Assembly (NCBI GenBank): GCA_963730285.1
Contig: CAVSQY010000014.1
Span: 11,992 to 75,991, forward strand
DNA length: 64,000 bases
From: an uncultured Actinomycetes bacterium
GTDB lineage: Bacteria; Actinomycetota; Acidimicrobiia; Spongiisociales; ZC4RG35
Reading direction: 5' to 3'
Made by a program: the position numbers and the translations under genes. The stretch's first letter is position 1, and each line of letters begins with the position of its first letter. The notes under the pieces were generated by a model. It was given only the letters and a program-made list of their open reading frames with translations, was not told where the DNA came from and made no database searches. Below are positions 11,099 to 47,972 of this stretch, piece by piece.

Positions 11099-11259
11099 CC
11101 TGATGCTCGGGCGAAAGCGAGGGCCGGCCCGTGCACAGCCAGTCCGTCACTTGATCGTGCGACCAGCCCATCTCGGAGGTCACCGTGTGGTAGGAGGCGT
11201 CGTCGTAGACCATCAGGACCATGTCGGAATGCTGGTTCCGTGAAGCACTGGCCAGATGA

Positions 11260-25400: not shown

Positions 25401-26740
25401 CCGCGTTCGAGCGATTCGAGCATGTGGCCCGCCTGGGCCATCTCTGACTCACGACCGACAAGTGGGGCGCGGAGACGTCTTCCCAGCCTTGCCTTGTCGG
25501 CGGTTCGGCGCACCGCCGTCGGCCGCCACATGACTCCCGATCCCGAAGAAGCGGACTCCTCCCAGTCGAAGGCGTCGATCATGAGACGACGGGTGTGGTC
25601 GTCGACCAGCACCGAATGGGGGCCTGGGTCGCTGAGCATTGTCTGAAGCGGTCCCTCTTCCATGCCGAAACCGGTCTCGAAGGGCAGTGTCACCGGCAGT
25701 GTGGACACGACACACCGGCCCTCACCGGTGGGCCCCAATGTCTCCCCGACGGCCAGCGCTGCCCGGATGGCTCGATAGGTGTCGTCCTCACGGGCGATGG
25801 GTGCCCCGAAGACGGCAAGGGCACGCGTCCCGTCTTCGTCGACGATCGTCCCTCCGAATCGGGCCAATGCCGAACGCGTCGCCTCTAGTGCGGCGGCCGA
25901 GCCGGTGGCCACCAAGAGCAGGGTGGCGAGCCGGTTCCCTGGGGGCAATGGCCGACCGATGACAGTTGCAGGACGGGCCTGCGGTCGATGTGACGGGGAT
26001 GGCGAGAGAGTCGGGTCCTGTGCCAGGATCCGATCGAGCAGGTTCTGGAGCTCGGGCCCAGGCTCGATCCCCAGTTCCTCGATGAGAAGCGCGCGCACGG
26101 TGTCGAAGGCCCGAAGTGCGTCGGCCTGCCGGCCCGAACGATAGAGCGCCAGCACGTATCGGCTCCACAAGTCCTCACGCAACGGGTGCTCTTCGAGCAG
26201 GGAGTGGAGGTCGACTGCGGCCTGGTCGTGACTGCCGGATCGGAGTTGGGCATCGGCCATGTCGACCTGGGCCTGAAGACGCACCGCCTCCAATCTGGCC
26301 TTGAGCGGGCGGACGACGTCGGCCTCGCGGGCGTCCACCAGGGGCTCGCCACGCCACCAGGAGAGGGCCTCACCGAGCCGACCGACCGTCGTCTCCGGGT
26401 CCTCCCACGTCGCCTCCCTGGCCTCGGTGACTGCCAGGACGAATCGGTGGGCGTCGACGTCTGATGTCTCGAGTGCCAGCTGGTAGCCGGGACCCTTGGT
26501 GGCGATCAACCCTTCGGGGAGCACCGAGCGCAGATGGTGGATGTAGGTCTGAAGTGCTTTGGCCGCCGTCGCCGGAGGGGTTTCGCCCCAAAGGCCGTCG
26601 ATGAGCCTGTCGCTGGTGATCAACCTTCCCACGTCGGCCGCCAGCAACGTCAGAAGGGCGCGCTCCATCGGACGACTGACCTCGATTCGGTGGCCATCGT
26701 CACTCAATTCCAGCGGTCCGAGCACCCCGACGAGCACCAC
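22475..26740 (-). CDS. 1421-aa multidomain one-component regulator: SARP-type winged-helix DNA-binding + BTAD / degenerate class-III cyclase-like domain / STAND (NB-ARC-like) P-loop ATPase / helical-TPR region / C-terminal solute-binding-protein family 5 (SBP_bac_5) domain
   Basis: aa 1-250: LGPLELSDDGHRIEVSRPMERALLTLLAADVGRLITSDRLIDGLWGE + BTAD (…YRSGRQADALRAFDTVRALLIEELGIEPGPELQNL). aa 270-390: cyclase-homology-like RLATLLLVATGSAAALEA...FGGTIVDEDGTRALAVFGAPIAREDDTYRAIRAAL (metal-binding Asp positions not conserved). Walker A VLVLSGDAGVGKT (aa ~451-463), Walker B MVIEDAHWAD, GNPFYLEEL motif. aa ~935-1421: ...LAERWEISDDGLIYRFTLRDGLKWSDGAPLTAHDVEFGL = canonical SBP_bac_5 signature (DppA/OppA/NikA family). 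No signal peptide, so the SBP domain is cytoplasmic. Confidence 0.85.
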   Translation of the reverse strand: MVLVGVLGPLELSDDGHRIEVSRPMERALLTLLAADVGRLITSDRLIDGLWGETPPATAAKALQTYIHHLRSVLPEGLIATKGPGYQLALETSDVDAHRFVLAVTEAREATWEDPETTVGRLGEALSWWRGEPLVDAREADVVRPLKARLEAVRLQAQVDMADAQLRSGSHDQAAVDLHSLLEEHPLREDLWSRYVLALYRSGRQADALRAFDTVRALLIEELGIEPGPELQNLLDRILAQDPTLSPSPSHRPQARPATVIGRPLPPGNRLATLLLVATGSAAALEATRSALARFGGTIVDEDGTRALAVFGAPIAREDDTYRAIRAALAVGETLGPTGEGRCVVSTLPVTLPFETGFGMEEGPLQTMLSDPGPHSVLVDDHTRRLMIDAFDWEESASSGSGVMWRPTAVRRTADKARLGRRLRAPLVGRESEMAQAGHMLESLERGIGGVLVLSGDAGVGKTRIISELRRSPSGIGFTWLLGHCDPYGEATPYWPFRDLIRSWLGLGIDEKDLPSRRTLHNRLEELLDEPAEPMYAYLTRLLGLSLTPDQQTRLSLAPEAIQFRTFEVVAELLTAISERSPTAMVIEDAHWADPTSVELLGNLTSLAESHRILYVVSSRPSPGHVSWRIAEAARHRVPHLITEITLGALGDSDQRAMLSSLLGTADLPEETTGRLLDLSEGNPFYLEELIGSLIDEGALTPSGSGWVFDRDAALTVPETVEKVVQSRIDRLDPSTHMVLTSASVLGRSFGLPLLQGIADERGGVLPAVQDLLRSDLLVEARRWPQAEYLFKHALTREAAYRTLPEGRRRALHRHAAEWLERQFEGNDEEVVELLARHWTAAGVDDRAAPALLRAGDLARGRHALEEAIEHYRQLLPLLEGSGDTPTTTLVLFKLGLAYHTALRFAEANATYQRAFELWSPAPSQEATETLLFAGPAFFDVPDPVRSYALQDIQLQMALFDRLVERWPDDTIVPSLAERWEISDDGLIYRFTLRDGLKWSDGAPLTAHDVEFGLKRNLDPDSPGVSVAMLYVLEGAADHALGRSSDPDLIGVRALDDRVVQFSLNAPAPYFLGMLNRPDCGPQPRHVIEAEPERWCDLDVEVVSGAFRRTEHKANRVVLDRRPDYVGHRLGNVETVVWHTAPVNEVMEGFLDERHDLAWISGPWDGAGSEQIPTDLVNREPTAGLIYFVLNHGRKNMADPRLRLALAQSLDRAALCEGLGEHLIPATGGVVPPALAGHTPDVAPVFDVDLARSLVGQARPDAPIRMAAFDIPHIVYTTLVERAAGQWRRHLGIEVETTTLGPSSQRLREVWEDVDIAPTWWYPGYTDPEYFLRLLLHTEGADNTGRFSSEAFDDLVERARMERDERTRLGLFHQADRLAVAELAAVIPLVYTRNTSLRRPLVEGWWEFGKSWANFADLTLS

Positions 26741-28909: not shown

Positions 28910-29100
28910 ACGCCGATCGCGATGCGTCACGGGTGATCATGGCGTCTGTTGACACCCTGGTCTGACTGGCACTGCCACGACCGCGAGCATCCTTGAAAGC
29001 AGGGCTTCCTCAGCCGATCAGGCAGAAAGTTCCAGTTCCAGGCGACACGGCTCCTCTCGCTTTGCCAGTATTGAGAATCTGGATCAAAGGGAGGTTATTT

Positions 29101-30315
29101 GTGAATTCGGCGCCAGCCGGTGTGCGAAATCTGTTCCGGGCGGCTCTTGTGATATTCATCATCACGGTGGTGATCGGGATCCTGAACGGGACCGACGTGT
29201 GGGATCCGCCCCGCAACACCCTTCTCGCCCATGTGCACGCCGGGACGCTGGGTTGGATCACTCTCTCGGTGTTCGGTGCGGCGATCTGGATGTTCGGCAA
29301 GCCCAACGATCCCAAGACCGGGAACATGGCGATGTACTGCATCGTGGCGTTGTCGCTGTATGTCCTCGCGTTTTGGTCCGGTGACATCTTCAATACCACA
29401 GAGAGCATCCAACGGCCCATCGGCGGCACACTTGCCTTCATCGCCATCACCTGGATGTTCGTCTGGGTGTTGAGAAGCAAGCAGGGCGAAAAGTGGAACG
29501 TTGCCGAATTCGGAATGGGCCTGGCTCTCTTCTTCCTCCTGATCGGGGCCGTCCTCGGTGTCCTCCTTGGCCTGCAGCTGGCCAATGTCGAGGTGGTGGC
29601 AGCGGAGAATGCCGGGCGTCTCGGCGACGCCCACCCGGCGGCCATGGTGATCGGCTACGTGGTGTTGGCGATGTTGGCTGTCATCGAGTGGCGGATCAGA
29701 GGTGAGTCGACACCCCTGATCGGCGATGCCAAGGCCGGTGTGGTCCAGATGGTGCTGATGTTCCTGGCCGGGTTGTTCGGGATGTTGGGATTCCTCCTCG
29801 ACACCCAGGGTCTTTTGATCGCCAACACGCCATTGCAGATAGCCGGGCTTCTCATATTCCTGTGGCGTCTGCGCAAGGAACTGGCACCGGCGCGGTGGCG
29901 AGGCGGAATCGAGGGGGTGATGTTGCGCACCGCCATCCTCGGGCTGGTCGCAGCCGTAGTTCTCACCGCCATCGTGGTGCAGAAGTTCGTTTCGGCCACC
30001 GGTGACGACGATGCGGTGTTCGCCCTCATCGAGCCCTATCTCCTGGCGCTGGACCACACCACCTTTATCCTGGTGGTGACCAATGTGATCTTCGCCATGC
30101 TGACGGTGGCCTCGGCGGTCCCGGACCTCTCGAGCAAGATCGTCTATTGGGGGATAAACGTCGGTGCCGTCGGGTTCGTGATCGGGCTCATCACCGAGAG
30201 CGCTCCGCTGAAGCGAACCTTCACCCCGATTCTCGGGCTGGCCCTGCTCTATGGGATCTATCTACATCTGACGGCCAAGCCGCGGGAGACCACGCAGGTG
30301 ATGGCGAGCGGGTAG
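29101..30315 (+). CDS. Polytopic integral membrane protein, hypothetical (~12 TM)
   Basis: GTG start with SD aaagggagg 7 nt upstream (the ORF-track start 28993 extends through an unlikely leader). Hydrophobic throughout. Confidence 0.55.
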   Translation: MNSAPAGVRNLFRAALVIFIITVVIGILNGTDVWDPPRNTLLAHVHAGTLGWITLSVFGAAIWMFGKPNDPKTGNMAMYCIVALSLYVLAFWSGDIFNTTESIQRPIGGTLAFIAITWMFVWVLRSKQGEKWNVAEFGMGLALFFLLIGAVLGVLLGLQLANVEVVAAENAGRLGDAHPAAMVIGYVVLAMLAVIEWRIRGESTPLIGDAKAGVVQMVLMFLAGLFGMLGFLLDTQGLLIANTPLQIAGLLIFLWRLRKELAPARWRGGIEGVMLRTAILGLVAAVVLTAIVVQKFVSATGDDDAVFALIEPYLLALDHTTFILVVTNVIFAMLTVASAVPDLSSKIVYWGINVGAVGFVIGLITESAPLKRTFTPILGLALLYGIYLHLTAKPRETTQVMASG

Positions 30316-30322
30316 CGGTCGA

Positions 30323-31813
30323 TCAGGTCGCGATGGGCAGGGAAAGCTCAAAGATGCTCTTGCCGTCTTCGTAGTTGTAGGTGAGGTCTCCGTCCATCAA
30401 GGATGCGAGCTTCCGCGAGACGGTGAGCCCGAGCCCGATGGATGCGGCCAGTCTCTCCCTGTTCGAGGCCCGCTGATATGGCTCGAATATGGTGCCTTGG
30501 TCGTCGAGCGGTATGCCCTCCCCATCGTCGACAACCGCAACACAGGCCAGAGGCCCGCAGTCGTAGGTCCGCACTTCGACGGTGTCGCCTCCATAGCGGA
30601 AGGCATTGGAGATCAGGTTGCGCAGGACCTGGCGAACCCGGGCGGGATCACCCATCCCGCGGATCGACGGCCCGCTGAGCACTACCCGTCCGCCCTCGCC
30701 GTTTTCGCCCAGGGCCTCGACTACCTGTGCCGACTGGGCCCGGAGGTCAACCGATACCTTGGCCACCTTGAGCGTCTCGTTGTCGGCCCGCGCCGCCACC
30801 AGCAAGTCCTCGACGATGTTGGTCAGGTCGGCGGTTTGATCGGCGATGCTCGTGACGATCTCGACTTGCTCGGCGGGCGACAGGGATGGGAGCTCGCTCC
30901 GCATCAGCTGGGCGAATCCCAGCACTGCGGTGAGTGGTATCCGCAGCTCGTGGGACACCGATGCGATCAGCTGATCTTTCGAGTCGAGCATCCCGCGAAG
31001 CTGGTCTTGAGCCTCGACCTGCTCGGTGATGTCGACCACATTCGCCACCAGATGGAGAGGCTTGCCTTCGGAGTCCCGCACCAGGGCGGTTGAGATGATC
31101 CCGTATGAGGTCGAACCGTCGCGGCGGAGATAGTGGAGTTTGGCTTCCGCCGAGGCCACCTCCCCATTGGCGACCTGGCGAAAGCGGGTCATGCTCTCCT
31201 CGCGGTCGTCGGGCGCTACCACCTCGAGAATGGTTCGACCCTCGATCTCCGCTTCGGTGTAACCGAGCATGTTGCAGCCAGCCGCGTTCACCCGGAGGAA
31301 TCGCCCGTCCGTGGGGCTCACCAGGGCCATTCCCGAGGCGGCCGACTCGAAGGCGAGGCGGAACCTTTCCTCACTGGTGGCGACGGCTTCCTCTGCGCGC
31401 TTTTGGCCGGTGATGTCCTGCATCTGCACCACGAAATGTTGAATTTCTTCCTCGGGATCCACAACGGGGGCAACATTGATTCGGGCCCAGACGATGCTGC
31501 CGTCGCTGTGGAGATACCGCTTCTCCCAGTTGGCCACTGGTGTCTCGCCGTCGAGGAGAGCTCGTAGCCATTCTTCACTCTGGGCCATGTCGACTGGGTG
31601 GGTGATATCGGCGAAGTGCCGGCCGTCGAGCGCACCGGGCTCGCGACCCAGCATCATGTTGAGAGATCGGTTGGTTGCAATGAAGTCGCCCTCGCGGGAG
31701 GTGACAGCCATCGCTACCGAGGCGTGCTCAAAGATGGCGCGAAAGTGCCGATCGGAGTCCCACATGGGGTTTGTTTGAGAGTTGTCCTGGTTGTTGCGAG
31801 TGCTCATCGGCAA
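30323..31813 (-). CDS. Cytoplasmic PAS-PAS sensor histidine kinase (orphan)
   Basis: Two PAS modules (RAIFEHASVAMAVTSREGDFIATNRSLNMMLG...; RFRLAFESAASGMALVSPTDGRFLRVNAAGCNMLGY...), H-box DQLIASVSHELRIPLTAVLGFAQLM, HATPase GDPARVRQVLRNLISNAFRYGG...GLGLTVSRKLASLMDGDL. Confidence 0.85.
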   Translation of the reverse strand: MPMSTRNNQDNSQTNPMWDSDRHFRAIFEHASVAMAVTSREGDFIATNRSLNMMLGREPGALDGRHFADITHPVDMAQSEEWLRALLDGETPVANWEKRYLHSDGSIVWARINVAPVVDPEEEIQHFVVQMQDITGQKRAEEAVATSEERFRLAFESAASGMALVSPTDGRFLRVNAAGCNMLGYTEAEIEGRTILEVVAPDDREESMTRFRQVANGEVASAEAKLHYLRRDGSTSYGIISTALVRDSEGKPLHLVANVVDITEQVEAQDQLRGMLDSKDQLIASVSHELRIPLTAVLGFAQLMRSELPSLSPAEQVEIVTSIADQTADLTNIVEDLLVAARADNETLKVAKVSVDLRAQSAQVVEALGENGEGGRVVLSGPSIRGMGDPARVRQVLRNLISNAFRYGGDTVEVRTYDCGPLACVAVVDDGEGIPLDDQGTIFEPYQRASNRERLAASIGLGLTVSRKLASLMDGDLTYNYEDGKSIFELSLPIAT

Positions 31814-31946
31814 CGTCCCTAGACCGACGGGGGCATGTTAGGGATGATCGGCAAGGGTTGTGGGGTACTGGAGACTTCCATCTGGGTGGGGTATTGACAC
31901 ATCGACTGCTCTCTGGCATGATTCGGTCGATCGACCGATTAGCGAG

Positions 31947-32546
31947 ATGGAGCCAACATTGACCGTCGAGACGGAAACCAGAGCCACCATCCTCGAGGCC
32001 GCCAAACAGGCCCTGTTGGCATCCGGTTTCTCCGGATTGTCCACCCGAAAGATCGCCGAGGAAGCCGGGGTGCCATTGAGCCAGATCCACTACCACTTCG
32101 GCTCAAAGCAAGGTTTGGTCCTGGAAGTGCTGGCTGAGGAGAACCGTCGGCTGCTGCGGAGACAGCGAGATCTCTATTCCGCCGAGATGCCCCTGTGGAA
32201 ACAGTGGGAGCAGGCCTGCGACTACCTGGAGGACGATCTCGAGTCCGGCTATGTCCGTGTCCTTCAGGAAATGATGGCTGCGGGGTGGTCGAACCCGGAG
32301 ATCGCCACCGTGGTCAAGGCGATGTTGAGCCAATGGTTCAAAGTGCTTCGAGACGTGGCCGCCGGCGCCGCCGGAGGAATCGGGGGTCTCGGGCCTTTCA
32401 CGCCCGCCGAGGCGAGTGTGATCGCCGGCTCTCCATTCCTTGGCGTCGAAAGCATGATCCTCCTCGGGTTCAGCGAGGCCGAGCTTCCGGTTCGGTCCGC
32501 CCTTCGCAAGTTCGGCGACCTCCTCCGGACGATGGAAGCGGAATGA
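31947..32546 (+). CDS. TetR-family transcriptional regulator
   Basis: HTH TRATILEAAKQALLASGFSGLSTRKIAEEAGVPLSQIHYHFGSKQGLVLEVL; ATGA overlap with the downstream hydrolase. Confidence 0.8.
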   Translation: MEPTLTVETETRATILEAAKQALLASGFSGLSTRKIAEEAGVPLSQIHYHFGSKQGLVLEVLAEENRRLLRRQRDLYSAEMPLWKQWEQACDYLEDDLESGYVRVLQEMMAAGWSNPEIATVVKAMLSQWFKVLRDVAAGAAGGIGGLGPFTPAEASVIAGSPFLGVESMILLGFSEAELPVRSALRKFGDLLRTMEAE

Positions 32547-33412
32547 GGGCAGTGCTGCCCACTCGGGCCTCCCATGTCGTGCGCGATGGTGTCAGCCTCG
32601 GTTACGAGACATTCGGTGAGGGGGATCGAACCATCCTCCTCCTCCCCACCTGGACCATCATTCACTCTCGATTCTGGAAGATGCAGGTTGCCTTTCTGTC
32701 CCGGCACTATCACGTGGTCACATATGACGGCCCAGGCAACGGCCGCTCGGATCGGACCACCGACCCCGACCGATACACGGCCGACGCATATGCCGACGAT
32801 GCGGTCGCCGTTCTCGATGCCTGCGGAGTCGAGCAGGCTGTGGTGGTCGGTCTCTCGCTGGGGGCGCAATATGGCACACGTCTCGCCGCCCGATATCCGA
32901 CCCGGGTGATTGGCCTGGCGCTGATCGGCTCGTCACTCCCCCTGGTCCCCCTACCCCCGGAAAGGGCCGGTATCCCGGCAAGCTTCCTCCAGCCATATCC
33001 CGAGGATCCGCAGGGATGGGAGAAGTACAACCTGGCCTATTGGCACGCCGATCACCGGGACTTCGTCGAATTCTTCTTTGGCCGGGTGTTTTCCGAGCCT
33101 CATTCCACCAAGCCGATCGAGGACGCGGTCGGTTGGGCGTTGGAGTCCGGGCCCGAGATACTCGAAGCGGAATCGTACGCACGCGAACTCGAGTTGACCG
33201 GTCCCGAGATCTTCGATCCGGTCAGGTGTCCGGTCATGGTCATACACGGGACCGAAGATCAGATCCAGTCCCATGAGGTCGGCGTGGAGGCCGCTCGTTG
33301 GAGCGGCGGCACCCTGGTATCGCTGGCGGGCTCCGGTCACCTGCCCAATGTCAGGGACCCGGTCAAGGTGAATCTGGCACTCCGCCAGTTCGTGGAGGGG
33401 CTGAAGGCATGA
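32543..33412 (+). CDS. Alpha/beta-hydrolase fold protein (289 aa)
   Basis: MRAVLPTRASHVVRDGVSLGYETFGEGDRTILLLPTWTIIHSRFWK..., nucleophile elbow VVVGLSLGAQYG (GxSxG), C-terminal ...SGHLPNVRDP. Start overlaps the TetR stop (ATGA 32543-32546). Confidence 0.8.
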   Translation: MRAVLPTRASHVVRDGVSLGYETFGEGDRTILLLPTWTIIHSRFWKMQVAFLSRHYHVVTYDGPGNGRSDRTTDPDRYTADAYADDAVAVLDACGVEQAVVVGLSLGAQYGTRLAARYPTRVIGLALIGSSLPLVPLPPERAGIPASFLQPYPEDPQGWEKYNLAYWHADHRDFVEFFFGRVFSEPHSTKPIEDAVGWALESGPEILEAESYARELELTGPEIFDPVRCPVMVIHGTEDQIQSHEVGVEAARWSGGTLVSLAGSGHLPNVRDPVKVNLALRQFVEGLKA

Positions 33413-35530
33413 GGGCGCGCGAGCCCGATCAGTCGGGAACACTCGATCGCGATGGGGTGAAGATCCATTACGAGGTGTTTGGCGAGGGGGACACCACCAT
33501 CGCGCTCGATACCACCTTCTCCGATCACCCATTCGAGGATCTGGAAGGGTCTCATCCCGTATCTCTCCCGTGACCATCGAGTTGTCACCCTCGATGGGAG
33601 AGGTAGCGGCAAGTCAGGCCGGCCGAGCACTGTGGCCGCTCACATCTCAGCCGAGAACGTGGCCGATATCCTGGCGGTCCTCGATGAAGTCGAGGTTTCG
33701 CGCGCAGTGCTCGTGGCCCACTGTCACGCCTGCTGGTGGGCGCTCGAGCTTGCCACCAAGCATCCTGAGCGAGTCGACGCTCTGGTGGCCGTCGCCCCAG
33801 GTATTCCGTATCTGGCCAAGTCGCAGCCGCATTGGGTGGAGACCGCCCCTCGCTGGGACGAGATCGTCGAGAGCCCGGTCGGCTGGGAGCTGAACAATCG
33901 GCACACGATCACGACGCGGCATCGTGAGTGGATCGAGTTCTTCTTCGGGGAGCAACTGGTGGAGCCGCACTCGACCAAGCAGTACGAGGATGCCGTCTCG
34001 TGGGCGATGGAATCCAACGGCGAGATCCTGGCCGCTGCCGATGAGGGCATCGAGACCGATCTCCCCGATTCCGAGGCCGTTGAGGAGATGTGCCGGGCGT
34101 TGCCCGTGTCCACGCTGACAATTCATGGCGACGCAGACATCTGCCAACACGTGGACCGGGGTCGGGAATTTGCCCGGCTCACCGGTGGAGAACTGCTCGT
34201 CATCGAGGGCGCCGGCCACCTCACACCGGCTCGCGAGCCGGTCAGGGTGAACCGGGCGATCAGAGAATTTGTCGACAAATTGAGAGGTGTTCCGATGGTT
34301 GATCACGTTTGGCCACGTGCCATGAGTCGTAGGAAGAAGGTGCTCTATCTCTCGTCGCCGATTGGTCTCGGTCACGCCCGACGTGATCTGGCGGTGGCAC
34401 AGGAGTTGAGACGAATCGATCCGGACCTCGAGATCGATTGGCTGGCTCAACACCCGGTCACGATGGTGCTGGAGCAAGCCGGTGAATCCGTGCATCCCGC
34501 TAGCGCCTGGCTCGCCTCCGAGTCGGGCCACATCGCTTCGGAGGCGTCCGGTCATGATCTGCATTGCTTTCAAGCGTTGCGGCGCATGGATGAGATCCTG
34601 CTGGCTAACTTCATGTTGTTCCAAGAAGTGGTCGAAGAGTCCCAATACGACCTCATAGTGGGGGATGAGGCCTGGGAGGTCGACTACTACTGGCACGAGA
34701 ACCCCGAGTTGAAGCGGGGCTCGCATGTGTGGATGACCGACTTCGTCGGCTACCTCCCTATGCCCGACGGTGGGGGCCACGAGGCATTTCTGACTGCCGA
34801 TTACAACGCGGAGATGATCGAGCACATCGCCCGTTTCCCCCGGATCCGCGACAGGGCCATCTTCGTCGGGAACGCCAACGACATCTATCCGGATGTCTTC
34901 GGCCCGACTCTCCCCAAGATCCGGGACTGGACCGAGGATCACTTCGAATTCTCGGGCTACATCACTGGGTTCACGCCGCCCACCGAGGATGAGATCGACG
35001 AGTGGCGGGCGGCGTTGGGCTACATGCCCGACGAGAAGGTTTGCGTCGTCACGGTAGGTGGTTCCGGTGTAGGGCGCGACCTCCTCGAGAAGGTGATCGC
35101 GGCCTTCCCCATGGTCAAGGCGAGGATCCCTGAACTCAGGATGGTCGCGGTTGCCGGCCCACGCATCGAGCCGAAGAATCTCCCCACCCATCCCGGTCTC
35201 GAGGTGAGGGGATATGTGGACGAGCTCTATCGACATCTGTCCGTATGTGACCTTGCTGTGGTCCAAGGTGGGCTCACGACCACGATGGAGCTCACCGCAT
35301 CCAAGAGACCCTTCATGTACTTCCCACTCCGCAATCACTTCGAGCAGAACTTCCATGTCCGCCATCGTCTCGATCAGTACGGGGCGGGACGACACATGGA
35401 CTATGCCGCCACCGATCCCGATGCGATCGCCACCGAGATCGAGGACCTGCTGGGTCGTCCAGTCCAATATCACGATGTCGAAGCCGACGGCGCCGCTCGC
35501 GCCGCCCGGATGATCGCCGAGCTCATCTAG
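33409..35530 (+). CDS. Second alpha/beta-hydrolase paralogue with an apparent +1 frameshift near codon ~37, continuing without a stop into a GT1/MGT-type glycosyltransferase domain (fusion or lost stop)
   Basis: Frame A from ATG 33409 (ATGA overlap with hydrolase 1): MRAREPDQSGTLDRDGVKIHYEVFGEGDTTIAL then goes out of register and stops at 33573. Frame B (the 33479 ORF): ...IPPSPITHSRIWKGLIPYLSRDHRVVTLDGRGSGKS...HCHACWW... aligns with hydrolase 1 (LLLPTWTIIHSRFWK...). Deleting one nt near 33515-33520 restores IAL-IPPSPITHSRIWK. After ...AREPVRVNRAIREFVDKLRGV the frame continues into a GT-B glycosyltransferase (KKVLYLSSPIGLGHARRDLAVAQEL ... GGLTTTMELTASKRPFMYFPL). Confidence 0.5.
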
Positions 35531-35628
35531 CGCCAACCGAAAGGGGTCTCATAGGAAACAGACATGTCCATCGAATCGGTCGAACGACCGAACGAAACCG
35601 GATCACCCAACCAAGCAAAGGAGCAAAG

Positions 35629-36192
35629 ATGCCTATCACCAGAGAGAAGAGAAACGGTGTCAACGTCGAAGGCCTGTTCGGGGCCCTAGACGCCGTCAAG
35701 GCCCAGCCGGAGGCGGCAAAGTTTCAGTTCAGGGCCACCAACCATTGGATAAGCGGCACCCATAGCAAGAGTCGCATCCATGACTTCTTCGGTCTCGGAG
35801 CCGAGCAGACCCACCGGGAGCCGCGCACTTTCGAGGCCGACCATCCCGAGCAACTGGTCGCGACGGACCAGGCGCCGGCGCCGGTCGAGTTCCTGCTCCA
35901 TGCCCTGGCCGCCTGCATCACCGCGGGTATCGGCAATGTTGCGGCGGCCCGCGATATCGAGCTGACCCGGGTCGAGTCCAGCGTGAGCGGCGACATCGAC
36001 CTGGTCGGTCTCCTCGGTCTCGACGACAGGGTCCGCAACGGCTATCAGGGCATGCGGGTCAGCATCGCCATCGAGGGCGACGCCTCCGCGGAGGACCTAC
36101 GCCGGGTGGTGGAGCGCTCGATAGCTCGCTCTGCCGTCTTCGACGTCCTTGCCAACGGCACTTCCGTCTCGGTCGAGATCGAAGCCGGCTGA
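35629..36192 (+). CDS. OsmC/Ohr family peroxiredoxin-like protein
   Basis: SD aaaggag; ...VEFLLHALAACITAGIGNVAAARDIEL...RVVERSIARSAVFDVL typical OsmC fold with conserved Cys. Confidence 0.8.
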   Translation: MPITREKRNGVNVEGLFGALDAVKAQPEAAKFQFRATNHWISGTHSKSRIHDFFGLGAEQTHREPRTFEADHPEQLVATDQAPAPVEFLLHALAACITAGIGNVAAARDIELTRVESSVSGDIDLVGLLGLDDRVRNGYQGMRVSIAIEGDASAEDLRRVVERSIARSAVFDVLANGTSVSVEIEAG

Positions 36193-36250
36193 ATGCCCGA
36201 CGGTGTGATCGGGGGATCCCCCGATCACACCACCGAACCTGGAGTGAATC

Positions 36251-37423
36251 ATGAGTGACTATTTCGATGTGATCGTGGTGGGGGCACGAGTGGCCGGCGC
36301 TTCGACGGCGATGCTCCTGGCCCAGCAAGGCCACCATGTGCTGGTGATGGATCGGGCGCCCATGCCATCTGACACTGTCTCGACACACGCCATGCTGCGC
36401 ACCGGTGTCCTTCAGCTTTCCCGATGGGGGCTGCTGGACCGGGTGATCGACTCCGGCGCCGCGCCGATTCGAGAGATAACCCTGGGCTTCGGCAGAGAGC
36501 GAATTTCTTTCGAGGTGCGCTCCAGTCATGGGATCGACACCCTCTATGCGCCGCGTCGTGTCGTCCTGGACCGGATCCTGCTCGAAGCGGCCCAGTCGTC
36601 CGGTGCCGAGTTCTTCGGAGAGACTCGGCTGACTGGTGTCCGGCGAGATGAGGATGGCAACATCTGTGGTGTGGCGGCGGAGCGATCTGGCGAGGTTCTG
36701 GAGCTCGATGCACGGATGGTGATCGGCGCCGACGGCGTATGGTCCCGGGTGGCGAACCTCGTTCAGGCGCCGATTCAACGCGGCCACCGGCCCACCAATG
36801 CGGTCCACTATGCGTATTACCGTGACGTTCGGCAGCGCGGCTTCTGGTTTCAGTTCACACCCGGCGTCAATGCCGGGATCATTCCCACCAATGATGACCT
36901 CTGCTGTGTCTTCGTTGGGCGACCTAGCCGCGAGGTTGCGGCCTTCCGGGCCGACCCAGAGGCGGAGTTTCATCGTCTTCTGAGAATGGCGGGGTCCGAC
37001 CTGGCCGAACGTGTCTCGGCCGGATCGAGAGTCAGTCAGTTCCGCGGGACCAAAGGACTACCCGGGCAGATACGAAAGCCGTTTGGTCCCACTTGGGCAC
37101 TCGTCGGGGACGCCGGATATACCAAAGACCCCATCTCAGCTCATGGGATCAGTGATGCATTGAGAGATGCCGAATTGTGCGCCCGGGCAGTGGATCGGGC
37201 GATCAGGCGTCCAGAGGAGGCCGTCGAAGCGATGAGTGAGTATCAGCAGATTCGCGATGAGCTTTCGTCGGTCATGTTCGGCGAGTCGGAGGCACTTGCC
37301 GCCTATCACTGGGAGGCCGATGAGGCATCCGCCCGGATGCGGCTGATCAGCCAGGCGGTCCGCGAAGAGTGCGATGCCCTGATGTCATTGCCCGAACGGT
37401 CGACCACAGTTGCCCGAGTCTGA
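36251..37423 (+). CDS. FAD-dependent oxidoreductase / flavin monooxygenase family
   Basis: Rossmann GxGxxG DVIVVGARVAGASTAMLLAQQGHHVLVMDR; GD motif LVGDAGYTKDPISAHGISDALRDAE. Confidence 0.8.
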   Translation: MSDYFDVIVVGARVAGASTAMLLAQQGHHVLVMDRAPMPSDTVSTHAMLRTGVLQLSRWGLLDRVIDSGAAPIREITLGFGRERISFEVRSSHGIDTLYAPRRVVLDRILLEAAQSSGAEFFGETRLTGVRRDEDGNICGVAAERSGEVLELDARMVIGADGVWSRVANLVQAPIQRGHRPTNAVHYAYYRDVRQRGFWFQFTPGVNAGIIPTNDDLCCVFVGRPSREVAAFRADPEAEFHRLLRMAGSDLAERVSAGSRVSQFRGTKGLPGQIRKPFGPTWALVGDAGYTKDPISAHGISDALRDAELCARAVDRAIRRPEEAVEAMSEYQQIRDELSSVMFGESEALAAYHWEADEASARMRLISQAVREECDALMSLPERSTTVARV

Positions 37424-37432
37424 AGATTCCAA

Positions 37433-38476
37433 TCAGCGAATTATCAGCAATTCGTCGCCGAACTCGTGCCACAGATAGCCGGATGCCAGGGCACTCTCAT
37501 AGACGTCTTCCAGCCGTTGTCTCCCGCCCATTGCCTCCAGTAGGCGTAGGTGTGACGACCGGGGCTCGTGCCACCCGGTGAGCAGCCCATCGACCGCTCT
37601 GATGTCCCGCTCGGGTGAGATCACCAGATCGGTGAGACCGCTGCCAGGGTGCAAAGTCCCGTCGCGGCCGGCGACCGTCTCCAAAGCCCTGACGACGCTG
37701 GTGCCGACGGCGATCAGACGGCCTCCGGTCTCGCGAAGTCGATTCACCGTGTTGGCGGTGGTGGCTGAAACTCGGAATCGTTCCTCGCCGGGCGCTTCGT
37801 CGTCTTCGAAGGAGGAGACCCCGGTGTGAAGGGTGACGGGAACCACCACCACTCCATTTGCCACCAGCCGGGTCACCAGCTCTGTTGTGAATGGTCGTCC
37901 GGCGCTGGGCATCTCGGAGGAGCCCGGCTCGGTGGCGAAGACCGTCTGGTAATCCGCAAGGGGCCAATCCGGCCCGTCCACGTAGCGAATGGGGCTCCCG
38001 TGCCAGTCGAGGTACTCCTCGATCTTCCCGATTCTCTCCAGGGCGGCGATCCACAGTCGGGGCGACCGTGGGCTCCTGGCCATCAGACGTGCGGTCGCAT
38101 CGCCTTGGAGGGTCAGGGTCTGTGCATCGAGTCGTGGGCCGGGTGTGGTTCCGCCGCCCGGCCCGGCGGTTCGCACTTCGAGTGACCAAATCCCCTCGGC
38201 AAGGGGCGAGGCGAGATGGACCCGAACCCTGGCCCCGTCCTGGGTGGTCGCTTCGAGGGAGGCCGGGATGGTCTTCGAGTTGTTGACCACCAGTGCATCC
38301 CCTGGGCGCAAGAGTTCCGCGAGGTCGGTGAAGGTTCGATGTTCGATCGCACCTGTTGGCGCCCGGGAGACCATGAGACGCACCCCGTCCCGGGGGGCGC
38401 CGCGGTGTTCGGGCGGTCCGCTGGCAACGCTCGATTCGGGCATCGCGAAGTCGATGGAGCGACTCAGAAGTGTCAC
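37433..38476 (-). CDS. queA: S-adenosylmethionine:tRNA ribosyltransferase-isomerase (QueA) family protein
   Basis: Matches QueA motifs: DALVVNNSKTIPASL (cf. DLLVFNNTRVIPARL), RLIAVGTSVVRALETVA (cf. RVIAVGTTSVRSLE), GYLWHEFGDELLI (cf. YRFFSYGDAMFI). The ORF-track frame 37497..38528 is an Arg-rich artefact. Confidence 0.7.
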   Translation of the reverse strand: MTLLSRSIDFAMPESSVASGPPEHRGAPRDGVRLMVSRAPTGAIEHRTFTDLAELLRPGDALVVNNSKTIPASLEATTQDGARVRVHLASPLAEGIWSLEVRTAGPGGGTTPGPRLDAQTLTLQGDATARLMARSPRSPRLWIAALERIGKIEEYLDWHGSPIRYVDGPDWPLADYQTVFATEPGSSEMPSAGRPFTTELVTRLVANGVVVVPVTLHTGVSSFEDDEAPGEERFRVSATTANTVNRLRETGGRLIAVGTSVVRALETVAGRDGTLHPGSGLTDLVISPERDIRAVDGLLTGWHEPRSSHLRLLEAMGGRQRLEDVYESALASGYLWHEFGDELLIIR

Positions 38477-39168
38477 GAGCCGGTCTCGATGGCGCTTGCC
38501 TGATAGCGGCCTGAGGGCCGTCGCTCACTGAGGATCCTAAGCAGCGGCGGAACGCTCTCCTCCGGTGGGGGACGGTCGGAGATGTCCTCGCCGGGGAATG
38601 CCTGCTGATGCATGACGGTGTTCATGTCGCCGGGGTCGAACCAGATCACGGTGACATCGGGCTCCTCGGCGGCGAGCACATTTGATAACTGCTCCAGGGC
38701 CGCCTTCGAAGATCCATATCCTCCCCAACCCTCATATCCCTCGACGGCGGCGTCGGAGGTGATGTTCACGATCGTGCCGTGCCTCTCTCGCAACGAAGGG
38801 AGCGCAAGTTGGATGATTCCGAGTGGGCCCAGGACGTTGGCACGGTAGACCTCGTCGAGATCGGTGATGGGGTAGTCGGCGAGGTTCGGCTGTGGGCTTG
38901 GTCCCAACACCGAGGCGTTGTTGACCAGCAAGTCGATACCACCCTGGTCGATCGCCGCATCGACCAGGGCGTGGCGGTGTCCGTCGTCGCCGACGTCACC
39001 CGCCACTGCTCGGACGATGGTTTGGCCGGCCAGCTCGCGGGCCGCCTCATCCAATGCCTTCGATCCACGAGCGTCGATGACCAGTGACCACTTGTCAGCC
39101 GCAAGTGCTCGGGCCAGAGCCAGGCCGAATCCGCGCGAAGCGCCCGTGATCACCGCGATGTCACCCAT
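38473..39168 (-). CDS. SDR family oxidoreductase
   Basis: MGDIAVITGASRGFGLALA (TGxxxGxG), LLVNNASV, YGSSKAAL (YxxxK). Stop overlaps the queA start. Confidence 0.8.
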   Translation of the reverse strand: MGDIAVITGASRGFGLALARALAADKWSLVIDARGSKALDEAARELAGQTIVRAVAGDVGDDGHRHALVDAAIDQGGIDLLVNNASVLGPSPQPNLADYPITDLDEVYRANVLGPLGIIQLALPSLRERHGTIVNITSDAAVEGYEGWGGYGSSKAALEQLSNVLAAEEPDVTVIWFDPGDMNTVMHQQAFPGEDISDRPPPEESVPPLLRILSERRPSGRYQASAIETGS

Positions 39169-46855: not shown

Positions 46856-47563
46856 TCAGGCGAGCACTTCGGCCACGATCACGGTGATGTTGTCGTGACC
46901 CCCGGCCTTGTTCGCCATTTCGATGAGGTTCCATGCCGTCTCCTCCACTGAACCCTCGGAGAGGCCCTTGTTGATTGCCACTGCCGGGACCATCGAGTTG
47001 AGCCCGTCGGAGCAGAGCAGGATCCGGTCCCCCGGCTCCAACTCGACTTCGAACTCGTCGACATTGATGAATCTGGTCAGCCCGAGACAGCGGGTGATGA
47101 TGTGACTCTGTGGGTGTTCTTCGGCCTCCTCGGCGGTGATCTCACCCAGTGAGACCAATTGAGCGGCCATGGTGTGATCCGAGGTGAGCTGGAGCAGTTG
47201 CCCTTCGTTGTGCAGATAGGCGCGGCTGTCCCCGACGTGGGCGAAGTGGGCGACACCCTCGGGGGTGAGCTCGACCAACGTCATGGTGGTCCCCATCCCC
47301 TCCAGGTCGGGTTGGCGAGCCACTTCTTCCCGGATGGCGCGATTGGCGGCCGCCACCCGATCACCCGGATCGAGGCCGGAGGATGCGGCGGCGTTGACGG
47401 CGAGCCGGGACGCCACCTCGCCGGCGACATGACCGCCCATGCCATCGGCCACCATCAGTGTCACCGGACCGTCCGATTCGCCGGAATCCTCGGGGAAGAG
47501 GGAGTCCTCGTTGTTCTTGCGGACCATTCCCTGATGGGTGGCTGAGGCCCAGACGTATCTCAC
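46856..47563 (-). CDS. pstP: PP2C-family Ser/Thr phosphatase (PstP-like, soluble catalytic domain only)
   Basis: MRYVWASATHQGMVRKNNEDS...MVADGMGGHVAGE...ILLCSDGL. Confidence 0.85.
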   Translation of the reverse strand: MRYVWASATHQGMVRKNNEDSLFPEDSGESDGPVTLMVADGMGGHVAGEVASRLAVNAAASSGLDPGDRVAAANRAIREEVARQPDLEGMGTTMTLVELTPEGVAHFAHVGDSRAYLHNEGQLLQLTSDHTMAAQLVSLGEITAEEAEEHPQSHIITRCLGLTRFINVDEFEVELEPGDRILLCSDGLNSMVPAVAINKGLSEGSVEETAWNLIEMANKAGGHDNITVIVAEVLA

Positions 47564-47970
47564 CTGACCTCCATCACACTCTTACCCACCTGAATCGTGT
47601 CTCCTCGTCTCAGCCTGGTCGGTGCGGTGACCCTCCGCCCGTTGACGTATGTGCCGTTGGTGCTCCCGAGATCGTGGAGCACAATCCCGTCTTCCTGGGC
47701 CACCAGCCTCATGTGGAACTCAGAAGCGTAGGGGTCATCCAGGAGCACGTCGGCCTCGGCCGACCTTCCCAACACCACGACGTCCTCCACCTCCAGCGTC
47801 GTCCCCTGTTGGCTCTCCGACTTGATCATCACCACTTTCGTCCCTTCCTTGCGCTTACGTCGGAGAGAGATGCCGAGATGGGAGCCGATGGCCCGAGCCA
47901 CCTGCCACACGAAGAGATAGACAAGGCCCAGGAAGATGATGCGGAGGATCGCCAGGATGATGTCGGGCAC
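47560..47970 (-). CDS. fhaB: FHA-domain membrane protein (FhaB/FipA-like)
   Basis: N-terminal TM + FHA (VVLGRSAEADVLLDDPYASEFHMRL...GSTNGTYVNGRRV). Confidence 0.8.
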   Translation of the reverse strand: MPDIILAILRIIFLGLVYLFVWQVARAIGSHLGISLRRKRKEGTKVVMIKSESQQGTTLEVEDVVVLGRSAEADVLLDDPYASEFHMRLVAQEDGIVLHDLGSTNGTYVNGRRVTAPTRLRRGDTIQVGKSVMEVR

Positions 47971-47972
47971 CG

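What the first reader, a model, noticed from the sequence alone, without database searches (positions are those of the whole stretch)
33409..35530. Frameshifted alpha/beta-hydrolase paralogue fused in frame to a GT1 glycosyltransferase, in a TetR/hydrolase/hydrolase chain of ATGA-coupled genes
Three consecutive genes start on the previous gene's stop (ATGA at 32543 and 33409). The third ORF begins as a clear paralogue of hydrolase 1 but leaves the homologous frame after ~37 codons. Homology resumes in the +1 frame (IPPSPITHSRIWK vs TWTIIHSRFWK) and then runs without a stop from the hydrolase C-terminus (…REFVDKLRGV) into a full GT-B glycosyltransferase. Either this is a sequencing or assembly indel, a recent pseudogenisation, or a genuine esterase-glycosyltransferase fusion (for example deacylase + glycosyltransferase for a glycolipid or natural product) with an unusual start.
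Basis: seen in the sequence. Interest (0 to 1): 0.5.

Follow-up and report, generated by a model that had tools for sequence, protein, structure and literature searches.

The report
One-base break in hydrolase-glycosyltransferase gene
The broken gene is a real, widely conserved 706-residue fusion of an esterase-like domain and a sugar-transferring domain. The break is one extra C found only in this contig, most likely an assembly error, so the finding is largely ordinary, though the fusion family has no known function.

Summary
TetR (31947-32546), a stand-alone Ser alpha/beta-hydrolase H1 (32543-33412) and a third gene starting at 33409 are linked by ATGA overlaps. The third gene changes frame after codon 33, then runs without a stop through a hydrolase domain into a GT-B glycosyltransferase.

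The cause is one extra C at 33507. Six independent assemblies of near-identical strains lack it and, where complete, encode an intact 706-aa protein. Contigs from run ERR11594398 match the window at 9,121 of 9,121 aligned bases, and this C is the only difference. An assembly error or a minor allele is therefore the most likely cause. A real recent pseudogene is the main rival. Programmed frameshifting is excluded.

The fusion is genuine. More than 100 orthologues are about 706 aa with no stop between the domains. A scan of species-representative genomes confirmed 389 matching stretches, across Actinomycetota, Proteobacteria and other phyla. TetR sits directly upstream in most.

The GT domain folds like GT1 small-molecule glycosyltransferases (CalG1, OleI/OleD). 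Function is uncharacterised. My inference is a TetR-controlled cytoplasmic enzyme that modifies a small molecule.

One side result: the fused hydrolase domain in this clade has a Cys nucleophile (AHCHA), and H1 looks like a remnant of a duplicated Ser-type fusion.

The parts
31894..31922 (+). Promoter-like site (TTGACA-17-CATGAT with an upstream TG), 25 nt upstream of the TetR start. It is a possible operon promoter.
   Evidence: One site was found against 1.0 expected in shuffles, so this is weak evidence. No inverted repeat or operator was found in 31780-31960.
31947..32546 (+). TetR-family regulator (199 aa), first gene of the chain. Its stop overlaps the H1 start (ATGA at 32543-32546).
   Evidence: Pfam PF00440 scores 46.5 bits against a cut-off of 24. 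A TetR homologue lies directly upstream of the fusion, or of H1 plus the fusion, in most of the 80 loci, across several phyla.
32543..33412 (+). H1, a stand-alone alpha/beta-hydrolase (289 aa) with a canonical GLSLG serine nucleophile elbow. It is a paralogue of the fused hydrolase domain.
   Evidence: Pfam PF00561 scores 88.6 bits. It is 40% identical to the fused domain, E = 5e-60. In a neighbour-joining tree it nests among the Ser-type fused domains.
33409..33506 (+). The 5' part of the fusion gene in its original frame: ATG 33409, overlapping the H1 stop (ATGA), then codons 1-32 and the first two bases of codon 33.
   Evidence: The encoded peptide MRAREPDQSGTLDRDGVKIHYEVFGEGDTTIAL is identical to the N-terminus of intact P0121.
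33507..33507 (+). The inserted C that causes the frameshift. The window reads GCGCT-C-GATACC; all sister assemblies read GCGCTGATACC. It is not in a homopolymer.
   Evidence: The C is absent from contigs of six independent samples. It is the only difference from ERR11594398 contigs over 9,121 bp.
33571..33573 (+). Premature TGA reached in the original frame because of the insertion. It truncates the product that starts at 33409 to 54 residues.
33508..34288 (+). The rest of the alpha/beta-hydrolase domain of the fusion (residues 33-293 of the intact protein), now in the +1 frame. The nucleophile elbow A-H-C-H-A is at 33716-33730 (Cys105 at 33722-33724). Asp243, Cys245 (34142-34144) and His270 follow.
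   Evidence: Pfam PF00561 scores 62.2 bits. In the AF2 model Cys105 sits between strand 99-104 and helix 107-117. Foldseek gives TM about 0.8 to aryl esterases, HsaD and enol-lactonase. Cys105, Asp243 and His270 are invariant in 39 orthologues. The Cys-type signature is described.
34289..34333 (+). Interdomain linker (residues about 294-308, VPMVDHVWPRAMSRR). There is no stop codon here in this window or in orthologues.
   Evidence: frame 2 is open. AF2 confidence drops here, with pLDDT 66-73. Orthologues keep one ORF of about 706 aa.
34334..35530 (+). GT-B glycosyltransferase domain (residues about 309-706) with stop TAG at 35528-35530. Motifs include SSPIGLGH at the N-terminus, VGGSGVG, and QGGLTTxMEL...PL(x)NHFEQN in the nucleotide-sugar half.
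   Evidence: Pfam PF04101 scores 27.1 bits against a cut-off of 22. A PDB profile search hits GT1 UGTs and MurG in the C-terminal half only. The AF2 model has pLDDT 83.7 and pTM 0.82. All top Foldseek hits are GT1 small-molecule GTs, E from 1e-14 to 1e-11.
33632..35530 (+). The truncated 632-aa gene call (GTG start) under which this locus is held in the public protein collection (P0001).
   Evidence: P0001 is 100% identical, comes from NCBI/ENA, and sits on a 151,254-bp contig.
35629..36192 (+). OsmC-like protein, a conserved downstream neighbour in the Acidimicrobiia clade.
   Evidence: Pfam PF02566 scores 55.5 bits. Synteny is shown.
36251..37423 (+). FAD-dependent monooxygenase or reductase (PF01494), a conserved downstream neighbour in the Acidimicrobiia clade.
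   Evidence: It falls below every NCBIfam cut-off; the best hits are the geranylgeranyl-reductase and UbiH-like families. Synteny is shown.

Best explanation
The locus is the operon TetR - H1 (Ser alpha/beta-hydrolase) - a 706-aa bifunctional protein, followed by OsmC and a flavin monooxygenase. The bifunctional protein has an N-terminal alpha/beta-hydrolase domain with a Cys-Asp-His triad and a C-terminal GT1-like GT-B glycosyltransferase.

The fusion is a genuine, conserved single gene whose start is coupled to the H1 stop (ATGA). In this contig it is interrupted by one extra C at 33507. That C is most likely a consensus or assembly error, or a low-frequency allele that was carried into the deposited contig. 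The organism therefore most probably makes the intact protein.

Inferred function, not shown: a TetR-derepressed cytoplasmic enzyme. The GT domain would glycosylate a hydrophobic small-molecule acceptor from a nucleotide sugar. The hydrolase domain, with H1, would cleave or transfer an acyl or ester group on the same substrate.
For: Shown:
- Deleting one base restores a 706-aa ORF.
- More than 100 orthologues at 67-77% identity are almost all exactly 706 aa with 100% coverage.
- The genome scan confirmed 389 matching stretches. In the 80 loci fetched, 74 copies are one continuous ORF.
- Contigs from six independent samples of near-identical strains lack the C. The two that hold the whole gene encode the intact 706-aa protein, and the four shorter ones stay in frame to the contig end. 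Synteny is the same wherever the flanks are present.
- ERR11594398 contigs L087, L095 and L096 match the window with 0 mismatches over 9,121 bp. The single gap is this C.
- Long neighbouring genes are intact, for example the 1,420-aa and 926-aa ORFs and PknB.
- Cys105, Asp243 and His270 are invariant. The hydrolase fold is confirmed and so is the GT-B fold with GT1-family enzymes as closest matches.

Supporting the functional inference:
- TetR is adjacent across phyla.
- Variable neighbours are small-molecule-modifying or stress enzymes: OsmC, a flavin monooxygenase, GST and Rv2258c-like methyltransferases.
- No biosynthetic cluster lies nearby.
- The N-terminus shows no signal peptide when read by eye.
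Against: - No raw reads were available, so 'error' and 'real variant' are not formally separated.
- The insertion is not in a homopolymer, the commonest site of long-read errors.
- Sequencing technology is unknown both for the deposited contig and for run ERR11594398.
- Function rests on context and fold only. Every named-family hit is far below its cut-off, for example macrolide esterases at 22-31 bits against 420-450, and MGT at 21.8 bits against 260.
- No characterised homologue was found in the PDB or the literature.
Confidence: 0.75

Rival explanations
1. The extra C is a real, recent loss-of-function mutation (pseudogenisation) fixed in the strain that was assembled. The strain would make a 54-residue peptide and, at best, an N-terminally truncated protein.
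For: - The insertion is not in a homopolymer and creates a clean +1 shift.
- Frameshifted copies of this gene occur in other MAGs: L030, L036 and L038.
- Strain-level SNP variation exists among samples, at 3-27 differences per contig.
- From general knowledge, frameshift pseudogenes are common in free-living bacteria.
Against: - The run whose contigs are otherwise base-for-base identical to the window (9,121 bp, 0 mismatches) does not carry the C, and its contig runs through the site without a break.
- All five other samples also lack it.
- Nothing downstream has decayed. The remaining 673 codons are open, and the repaired protein differs from intact P0121 at 2 residues.
Confidence: 0.2
2. Programmed +1 ribosomal frameshifting, or another recoding event, at CTC-G-ATA produces the full-length protein from the shifted gene.
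For: The upstream and downstream parts are both intact, and together they would encode a complete protein.
Against: - The shift site is absent from every near-identical strain and from more than 100 orthologues, which are all in one frame.
- CUC-G does not allow cognate re-pairing in the +1 frame, and frame 0 has no stop or rare codon at the site (read).
Confidence: 0.01
3. The shifted gene is still functional through an alternative start (TTG 33479, or GTG 33632 as in the deposited annotation). The product would be a GT with a truncated, inactive hydrolase remnant.
For: - An open frame with start codons exists: 683 aa from TTG 33479 and 632 aa from GTG 33632.
- Stand-alone GT relatives of about 400 aa exist at 34-45% identity, so the GT fold does not need the hydrolase domain.
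Against: - A start at 33479 would lack strands 1-2 and most of strand 3 of the alpha/beta sheet. A start at 33632 (residue 75) would lack strands 1-4.
- No orthologue uses such a start.
- By eye, neither start is preceded by a ribosome-binding site.
Confidence: 0.04
4. Rival reading of the function: the fusion builds an endogenous glycolipid or glycosylated isoprenoid or quinone, following RhlA/RhlB-like logic. The hydrolase-fold domain would act as an acyltransferase and the GT would add the sugar. It would not be modifying a xenobiotic.
For: - From general knowledge, Cys nucleophiles in this fold are typical of acyl-transfer enzymes such as PHA synthase.
- The neighbouring flavoprotein's best, sub-threshold hits are the geranylgeranyl-reductase and UbiH families.
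- Weak GT hits to diacylglycerol glycosyltransferases appear in relatives and in the PDB profile search.
- The family is very widespread and its length is conserved.
Against: - The conserved partner is a TetR repressor, not lipid-synthesis genes.
- The other neighbours vary between lineages.
- Top fold matches are secondary-metabolite and macrolide GTs, not lipid GTs.
- I saw no membrane segments when reading the sequence.
Confidence: 0.2

Closest known systems
GT1-family small-molecule glycosyltransferases (OleI/OleD macrolide GTs, CalG1-4, UrdGT2, Bacillus YjiC/YojK/UGT109A1)
   Same: - GT-B fold, with the top 50 Foldseek PDB hits at E from 1e-14 to 1e-11.
- The C-terminal nucleotide-sugar half aligns by sequence profile: 7vlb at 4.5e-9 and OleD at 1e-4.
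- A Gly-rich N-terminal loop followed by His (SSPIGLGH).
   Different: - Only 12-17% identity.
- The acceptor-binding half has no sequence match.
- Far below the NCBIfam MGT cut-off (21.8 bits against 260).
- Covalently fused to an alpha/beta-hydrolase domain, which none of these enzymes has.
- The EQN motif resembles MurG (GT28) as much as it resembles GT1.
Alpha/beta-hydrolase esterases and lactonases (PcaD 3-oxoadipate enol-lactonase, Est816 AHL lactonase, P. fluorescens aryl esterase, HsaD/CumD C-C hydrolases, EstT/EstX macrolide esterases)
   Same: - Same fold, with TM about 0.8.
- Best sequence hits are 5egn Est816 at 1e-16 and the PcaD models.
- Asp and His of the triad sit in the canonical places.
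   Different: - All hits are far below the family cut-offs.
- In this clade the nucleophile is Cys in an A-H-C-H-A elbow instead of G-x-S-x-G, with a co-varying Cys245.
- Fused to a GT domain.
RhlA/RhlB of rhamnolipid synthesis (recalled from general knowledge, not tested here)
   Same: An alpha/beta-hydrolase-fold protein works together with a GT-B glycosyltransferase, and the two are encoded next to each other.
   Different: - RhlA and RhlB are separate proteins.
- No sequence relationship was tested or seen.
- Control is by quorum sensing rather than by a TetR repressor.
Cys-nucleophile alpha/beta-hydrolases (dienelactone hydrolase, PHA synthase PhaC; recalled from general knowledge)
   Same: A Cys-His-Asp triad on the alpha/beta-hydrolase scaffold.
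   Different: - No detectable specific sequence similarity. Neither appears among the listed best hits.
- The flanking His residues and the co-varying Cys245 are not features of those families that I know of.

Membership tests
Alpha/beta-hydrolase fold superfamily (Pfam PF00561 / PF12697) | Sequence match above the Pfam gathering score | tested here: met
   PF00561 scores 62.2 bits (cut-off 25.8) and PF12697 scores 47.6 bits (cut-off 26.3) for the repaired protein. H1 scores 88.6 bits.
Alpha/beta-hydrolase fold superfamily (Pfam PF00561 / PF12697) | Canonical beta-sheet and helix topology, with the nucleophile elbow after strand 5, the acid after strand 7 and the His after strand 8 | tested here: met
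   In the AF2 model the hydrolase domain is mostly at pLDDT 85-97. Cys105 lies between E99-104 and H107-117, Asp243 follows E234-240, and His270 follows E261-265. Foldseek gives TMt 0.78-0.86 to solved hydrolases.
Alpha/beta-hydrolase fold superfamily (Pfam PF00561 / PF12697) | Ser nucleophile in a G-x-S-x-G motif | tested here: not met
   The fused domain has A-H-C-H-A. Cys is present in all 33 sequences of the main Cys-type clade. H1 and the distant fusions have G-L-S-x-G. Cys is a known alternative nucleophile in this fold, so this does not exclude catalysis.
GT-B glycosyltransferases of the GT1/GT28 type | Two Rossmann-like domains, the C-terminal one binding the nucleotide sugar | tested here: met
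   The AF2 model has pLDDT 83.7 and pTM 0.82, with two beta/alpha/beta halves. All top Foldseek hits are GT1 enzymes. PF04101 scores 27.1 bits against a cut-off of 22.
GT-B glycosyltransferases of the GT1/GT28 type | CAZy family assignment (GT1 or GT28) by CAZy's own models | not testable with these tools
   No CAZy or dbCAN library is available. Profile hits go to both GT1 UGTs (4.5e-9) and MurG (1.4e-5).
Macrolide glycosyltransferase (NCBIfam TIGR01426 MGT / NF033129 Mgt) | Score above the curated cut-off | tested here: not met
   21.8 bits against 260. Stand-alone relatives score 27-54 bits.
Alpha/beta-fold macrolide esterases (EstT, EstX, MLE families) | Score above the curated cut-off | tested here: not met
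   H1 scores 75 bits against 420. The fusion scores 31 bits against 420 and 22 bits against 450.
Programmed ribosomal frameshift genes | The shift is conserved in orthologues, with a slippery or stalling site | tested here: not met
   The shift is absent from six near-identical assemblies and from more than 100 orthologues. No slippery motif is visible at 33499-33512.
TetR-family regulators | N-terminal TetR helix-turn-helix domain | tested here: met
   PF00440 scores 46.5 bits against a cut-off of 24, at residues 15-61.
TetR-family regulators | A palindromic operator near its own or its target promoter | tested here: inconclusive
   No inverted repeat of at least 10 nt was found in 31780-31960. 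Short or imperfect operators would be missed.

The most novel reading that the evidence does not exclude
The ABH-GT fusion family would be a previously unrecognised, TetR-controlled two-step system that inactivates or modifies a small molecule, for example by de-esterification or lactone opening followed by glycosylation of an antibiotic or signal. In the Acidimicrobiia/Jiangellaceae clade an ancestral Ser-type fusion duplicated. One copy lost its GT domain and became H1. The other rebuilt its active site around Cys105/Cys245 and three His residues, into a new catalytic, redox-sensing or metal-binding centre.
Probability: 0.15. Interest if true: 0.55.

Novelty: new member of a known kind. Interest (0 to 1): 0.25.

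Why it matters
For this window it matters mainly as quality control. A conserved 706-aa gene is held as a truncated 632-aa protein because of one probably spurious base, and a fix is easy to check.

More broadly, the locus points to a large, length-conserved and entirely uncharacterised family. Members occur in soil Actinomycetota and Proteobacteria, fuse an esterase-like domain to a GT1-like transferase, and sit under a TetR repressor. If the family modifies xenobiotics or antibiotics, it would be an unrecognised environmental resistance or detoxification determinant.

The switch from a Ser to a Cys nucleophile, with a retained Ser paralogue, is a tidy case of duplication and domain loss. None of this is very surprising to a specialist, and no function is shown.

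Tried and rejected
- Two home-made frame-switch scanners, based on GC3 and on codon usage, were run over the whole window to estimate how many other genes are broken. Both gave many false positives from antisense frames and missed the known frameshift, so they were discarded.
- The candidate triple frame switch at 10.5-12.0 kb on the minus strand looks like two ordinary adjacent genes.
- Exact-protein look-ups for P0001 and four other window proteins found nothing on record. Look-ups with H1, an FHA-domain protein and OsmC worked and gave the decisive sister contigs.
- Two literature searches for a hydrolase-glycosyltransferase fusion found no paper. A paper on alpha/beta-fold macrolide esterases (PMC12704417) does not mention fusions or Acidimicrobiia.
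- A search for a TetR operator palindrome found none.
- A sequence search of the PDB with the whole protein returned hydrolases among its listed best hits. Foldseek with the whole-protein model did the same. The GT domain therefore had to be profiled and modelled separately.
- Programmed frameshifting was considered and rejected because the shift is absent from all relatives.
- The interdomain geometry, meaning whether the two active sites face each other, could not be examined because model coordinates and PAE are not exposed.
Full report
**1. The observation**

The region contains three head-to-tail genes on the + strand.
- A TetR-family regulator lies at 31947-32546 (PF00440, 46.5 bits).
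- An alpha/beta-hydrolase, H1, lies at 32543-33412 (PF00561, 88.6 bits).
- A third gene starts at ATG 33409.

Each start overlaps the previous stop as ATGA, at 32543-32546 and 33409-33412.

From 33409 the translation MRAREPDQSGTLDRDGVKIHYEVFGEGDTTIAL parallels H1. It then degenerates and stops at TGA 33571-33573. In the +1 frame the similarity to H1 resumes (IPPSPITHSRIWK...) and continues as the 683-codon ORF 33479-35530.

Deleting a single base yields a 706-aa protein. Its first 292 residues align with H1 end to end, at 40% identity and E = 5e-60. Its C-terminal 400 residues carry a glycosyltransferase signature (PF04101 at 27.1 bits, plus weak MurG, MGT and MJ1255 hits). No stop codon separates the two domains.

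**2. The fusion is genuine**

- They are 67-77% identical, and nearly all are exactly 706 aa with 100% query coverage.
- Most carry both hydrolase and GT Pfam domains.
- JGI names them 'pimeloyl-ACP methyl ester carboxylesterase/predicted glycosyltransferase'.

A scan of one genome per GTDB species confirmed 389 stretches that encode a relative. The 80 loci fetched span Acidimicrobiia, Jiangellaceae, Thermoleophilia/Solirubrobacterales, Alpha- and Betaproteobacteria, SAR324 and Acidobacteria. They include the isolate Hyphomicrobium sp. CS1BSMeth3. In those loci 74 copies are one continuous ORF covering residues 1-706.

Searching 1.84 billion cluster representatives with the GT domain alone gave 2,496 clusters at E <= 1e-3.
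- Nearly every full-length match at 48% identity or more is about 700 aa with the GT at the C-terminus. The one exception is the 393-aa P0128 at 62% identity.
- Stand-alone GTs of about 400 aa otherwise appear only at 34-45% identity.
- No NCBIfam model names them.
- In the one context I checked, no hydrolase lies next to the stand-alone GT.

**3. The frameshift is private to this contig**

The window's own gene is held in the protein collection as a truncated 632-aa call starting at GTG 33632 (P0001, NCBI/ENA, contig of 151,254 bp). Its 90% cluster contains one other member, P0121. This is an intact 706-aa protein that differs from my repaired translation at only two residues.

P0121 is encoded on two Logan contigs from runs SRR22807979 and SRR22808083. 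They are 99.7% identical to the window over 8.5-8.8 kb and have the same gene order. That order is histidine kinase, TetR, H1, fusion and OsmC on both contigs. The SRR22808083 contig continues through the FAD monooxygenase and QueA.

Aligned to the window, the only coding indel is one extra C at 33507: GCGCT[C]GATACC.

A look-up with the exact H1 protein brought in four more independent contigs, from SRR22808038, SRR22807978, ERR11594398 and JGI 3300081966. All six samples read GCGCTGATACC.

The decisive comparison is with run ERR11594398. Its three contigs cover window 29970-33702, 34804-39132 and 47554-48612. They are identical to the window at every aligned base: 9,121 bp, with 0 mismatches. 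The extra C is the single gap. Contigs from the other samples differ by 3-27 substitutions each.

The deposited contig and ERR11594398 therefore represent the same strain or population. In that run's k-mer assembly the no-C allele is traversed without a break.

This makes a consensus or assembly error, or a minor allele picked up by one assembler, the best explanation. I put it at about 0.75. A real, very recent pseudogenising mutation is not excluded, at about 0.2. The site is not a homopolymer, and I have no reads and no knowledge of the sequencing platform.

Apparent frameshifts of this same gene occur in 3 of the 80 MAG loci: L030, L036 and L038. The last two are 'MFD' MAGs, and L038 also has a fragmented neighbouring gene. 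That shows such breaks are a routine MAG phenomenon.

Programmed frameshifting is excluded in practice. No relative has the shift, and the site has no slippery or stalling features.

**4. What the protein is**

*Hydrolase domain (residues 1-293).* The AF2 model is confident over most of the domain (pLDDT mostly 85-97). Its closest solved folds are aryl esterases/perhydrolases, HsaD/CumD C-C hydrolases and enol-lactonases, with TM about 0.8 and about 20% identity. The best sequence hit in the PDB is the AHL-lactonase Est816, at 1e-16.

The acid (Asp243) and base (His270) are canonical and invariant. The nucleophile elbow is A-H-C-H-A, with Cys105 where H1 has GLSLG.

*GT domain (about 309-706).* Modelled alone, it gives pLDDT 83.7 and pTM 0.82. 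It is a two-Rossmann GT-B whose 50 best PDB matches are all GT1-family small-molecule glycosyltransferases: CalG1, OleI/OleD, UrdGT2, LanGT2, YojK/UGT109A1, GtfA/D, SpnG, sterol UGT51 and mite UGTs. E-values run from 1e-14 to 1e-11 at 12-17% identity. By sequence profile, only the nucleotide-sugar half matches solved proteins: UGT109A1 at 4.5e-9, YjiC, MurG at 1e-5 and OleD.

Every named family (MGT, MurG, macrolide esterases, PcaD) is far below its curated cut-off. The protein therefore belongs to the two superfamilies but to no characterised family. Two literature searches found nothing on such a fusion.

**5. Context and likely role**

- *Conserved partner.* A TetR gene immediately upstream is the partner conserved across phyla.
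- *Lineage-restricted neighbours.* H1 is present only in the clade that includes the window (Acidimicrobiia, Jiangellaceae and a few other actinobacterial MAGs). There the ATGA coupling to the fusion is also conserved, judging from the coordinates. OsmC and a flavoprotein follow in the Acidimicrobiia. The flavoprotein's best, sub-threshold hits are the geranylgeranyl-reductase and UbiH families.
- *Distant lineages.* The neighbours are instead Rv2258c-like wHTH-methyltransferases (three loci) or a GST.
- *Window surroundings.* These are housekeeping genes (PknB, PBP, FtsW/RodA, thiolase, QueA, a PAS histidine kinase), with no biosynthetic cluster.
- *Location.* I see no signal peptide or membrane segment on reading the sequence.

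From this I infer, without direct evidence, a ligand-derepressed cytoplasmic enzyme. It would act on a hydrophobic small molecule by glycosylation from a nucleotide sugar, combined with ester, lactone or acyl chemistry. An endogenous glycolipid or isoprenoid role is the main functional rival.

**6. A side result on evolution**

Across 74 fused copies the nucleophile is Ser in 38 and Cys in 37 sequences, counting the reference.
- The main Cys-type clade is the one that also carries a stand-alone H1. Three outlying Cys-type copies (L042, L052 and L061) have no stand-alone H1 nearby.
- Every distant fusion in a locus without H1, apart from L042 and L052, is Ser-type. In one search my H1 flag also picked up Ser-type fused domains, which is itself informative.
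- H1 sequences are up to 67.5% identical to Ser-type fused domains, but at most 50.3% identical to Cys-type ones.
- In a neighbour-joining tree, most H1 sequences form a clade sister to the Ser-type fusion of L040. That fusion sits in a TetR-fusion-OsmC-monooxygenase context. The H1 sequences of L019, L022, L033 and L035 branch elsewhere within the same Ser-type group.
- Some genomes carry two full fusions: L039 and L061 each have one Ser-type and one Cys-type copy, and L044 has two Ser-type copies.

The simplest reading is as follows. A Ser-type fusion duplicated. One copy remodelled its active site. The other lost its GT domain and became H1.

The Cys-type signature is A103-H104-C105-H106-A107, W110, H141, W174 and Cys245. 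It is 94-100% conserved in that clade and absent from the Ser types. Whether it is a Cys nucleophile, a redox switch or a metal site is unexplained. This rests on an unbootstrapped distance tree and should be treated as a lead.

**7. Verdict**

The finding is real as described, and its explanation is mostly mundane. A conserved bifunctional gene is interrupted in this one contig by a single, probably spurious, base.

The fusion architecture is already catalogued in public annotation but is functionally uncharacterised. The gene is a new member of a known (uncharacterised) kind. Interest is low to moderate, at 0.25.

Noticed in passing
window 33716-33730 (A-H-C-H-A) and 34142-34144 (Cys245); loci L003-L039: The fused hydrolase domain of this clade has a co-varying signature: H104, C105, H106, W110, H141, W174 and C245. 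It is 94-100% conserved, and it replaces G-L-S-x-G and Ile245 of the Ser-type relatives. Asp243 and His270 are kept. This could be a Cys nucleophile, a redox-sensitive pair or a metal site; an OsmC gene lies downstream.
   Followed up: partly
window 32543-33412; L040, L039, L044, L061: Stand-alone H1 is closer to the Ser-type fused hydrolase domains (up to 67.5% identity, sister to L040 in a neighbour-joining tree) than to its Cys-type neighbour. Some genomes carry two complete fusions, either one Ser-type plus one Cys-type or two Ser-type. This suggests that a fusion duplicated and one copy then lost its GT domain.
   Followed up: partly
L081:8136-8903, L067:8921-10012, L052:4806-5858: In distant members of the family (Alphaproteobacteria and an actinomycete MAG) an Rv2258c-like winged-HTH SAM methyltransferase lies next to the fusion gene. 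In Hyphomicrobium (L057) a GST lies downstream.
   Followed up: partly
window 48655: The window has CCC where three Logan contigs (SRR22807978, SRR22807979, SRR22808083) have CCCC. This is a homopolymer length difference 33 nt upstream of an FhaA-like gene, in intergenic sequence. The ERR11594398 contig stops short of it, so it is unclear whether this is an error or a variant.
   Followed up: partly
L030:6867-8988, L036:6842-8986, L038:6867-8988, L012, L029: Other MAGs also show this gene, or its neighbours OsmC, the monooxygenase and an extra H1 copy, split by frameshifts. These are mostly the 'MFD' MAGs. Apparent frameshifts in this operon are a recurrent assembly-level phenomenon.
   Followed up: no
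window 22475-26740 (-): A 1,420-aa ORF combines a winged-helix Trans_reg_C domain, BTAD, AAA_16 and TPR (an AfsR/SARP-like regulator) with a C-terminal family-5 solute-binding domain (SBP_bac_5, 192 bits). This is an unusual regulator-sensor architecture.
   Followed up: no
window 19616-22399 (-): A 926-aa ORF with good coding statistics has no Pfam hit at E <= 1e-5.
   Followed up: no
window 10526-11892 (-): A crude frame scanner flagged three successive coding-like frames here. On inspection it looks like an AhpD/CMD-like gene (11260-11892, with a CxxC motif) followed by a gene at 10526-11098 that I read as a cyclic-nucleotide-binding protein (not tested). An Arg/Pro-rich off-frame ORF overlaps them. 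No frameshift was demonstrated.
   Followed up: partly
window 28993-30315 (+): A 440-aa ORF gives only a marginal hit to cytochrome oxidase subunit I (PF00115, 35.3 bits against a cut-off of 34.8). It is conserved next to the histidine kinase in the sister contigs.
   Followed up: no
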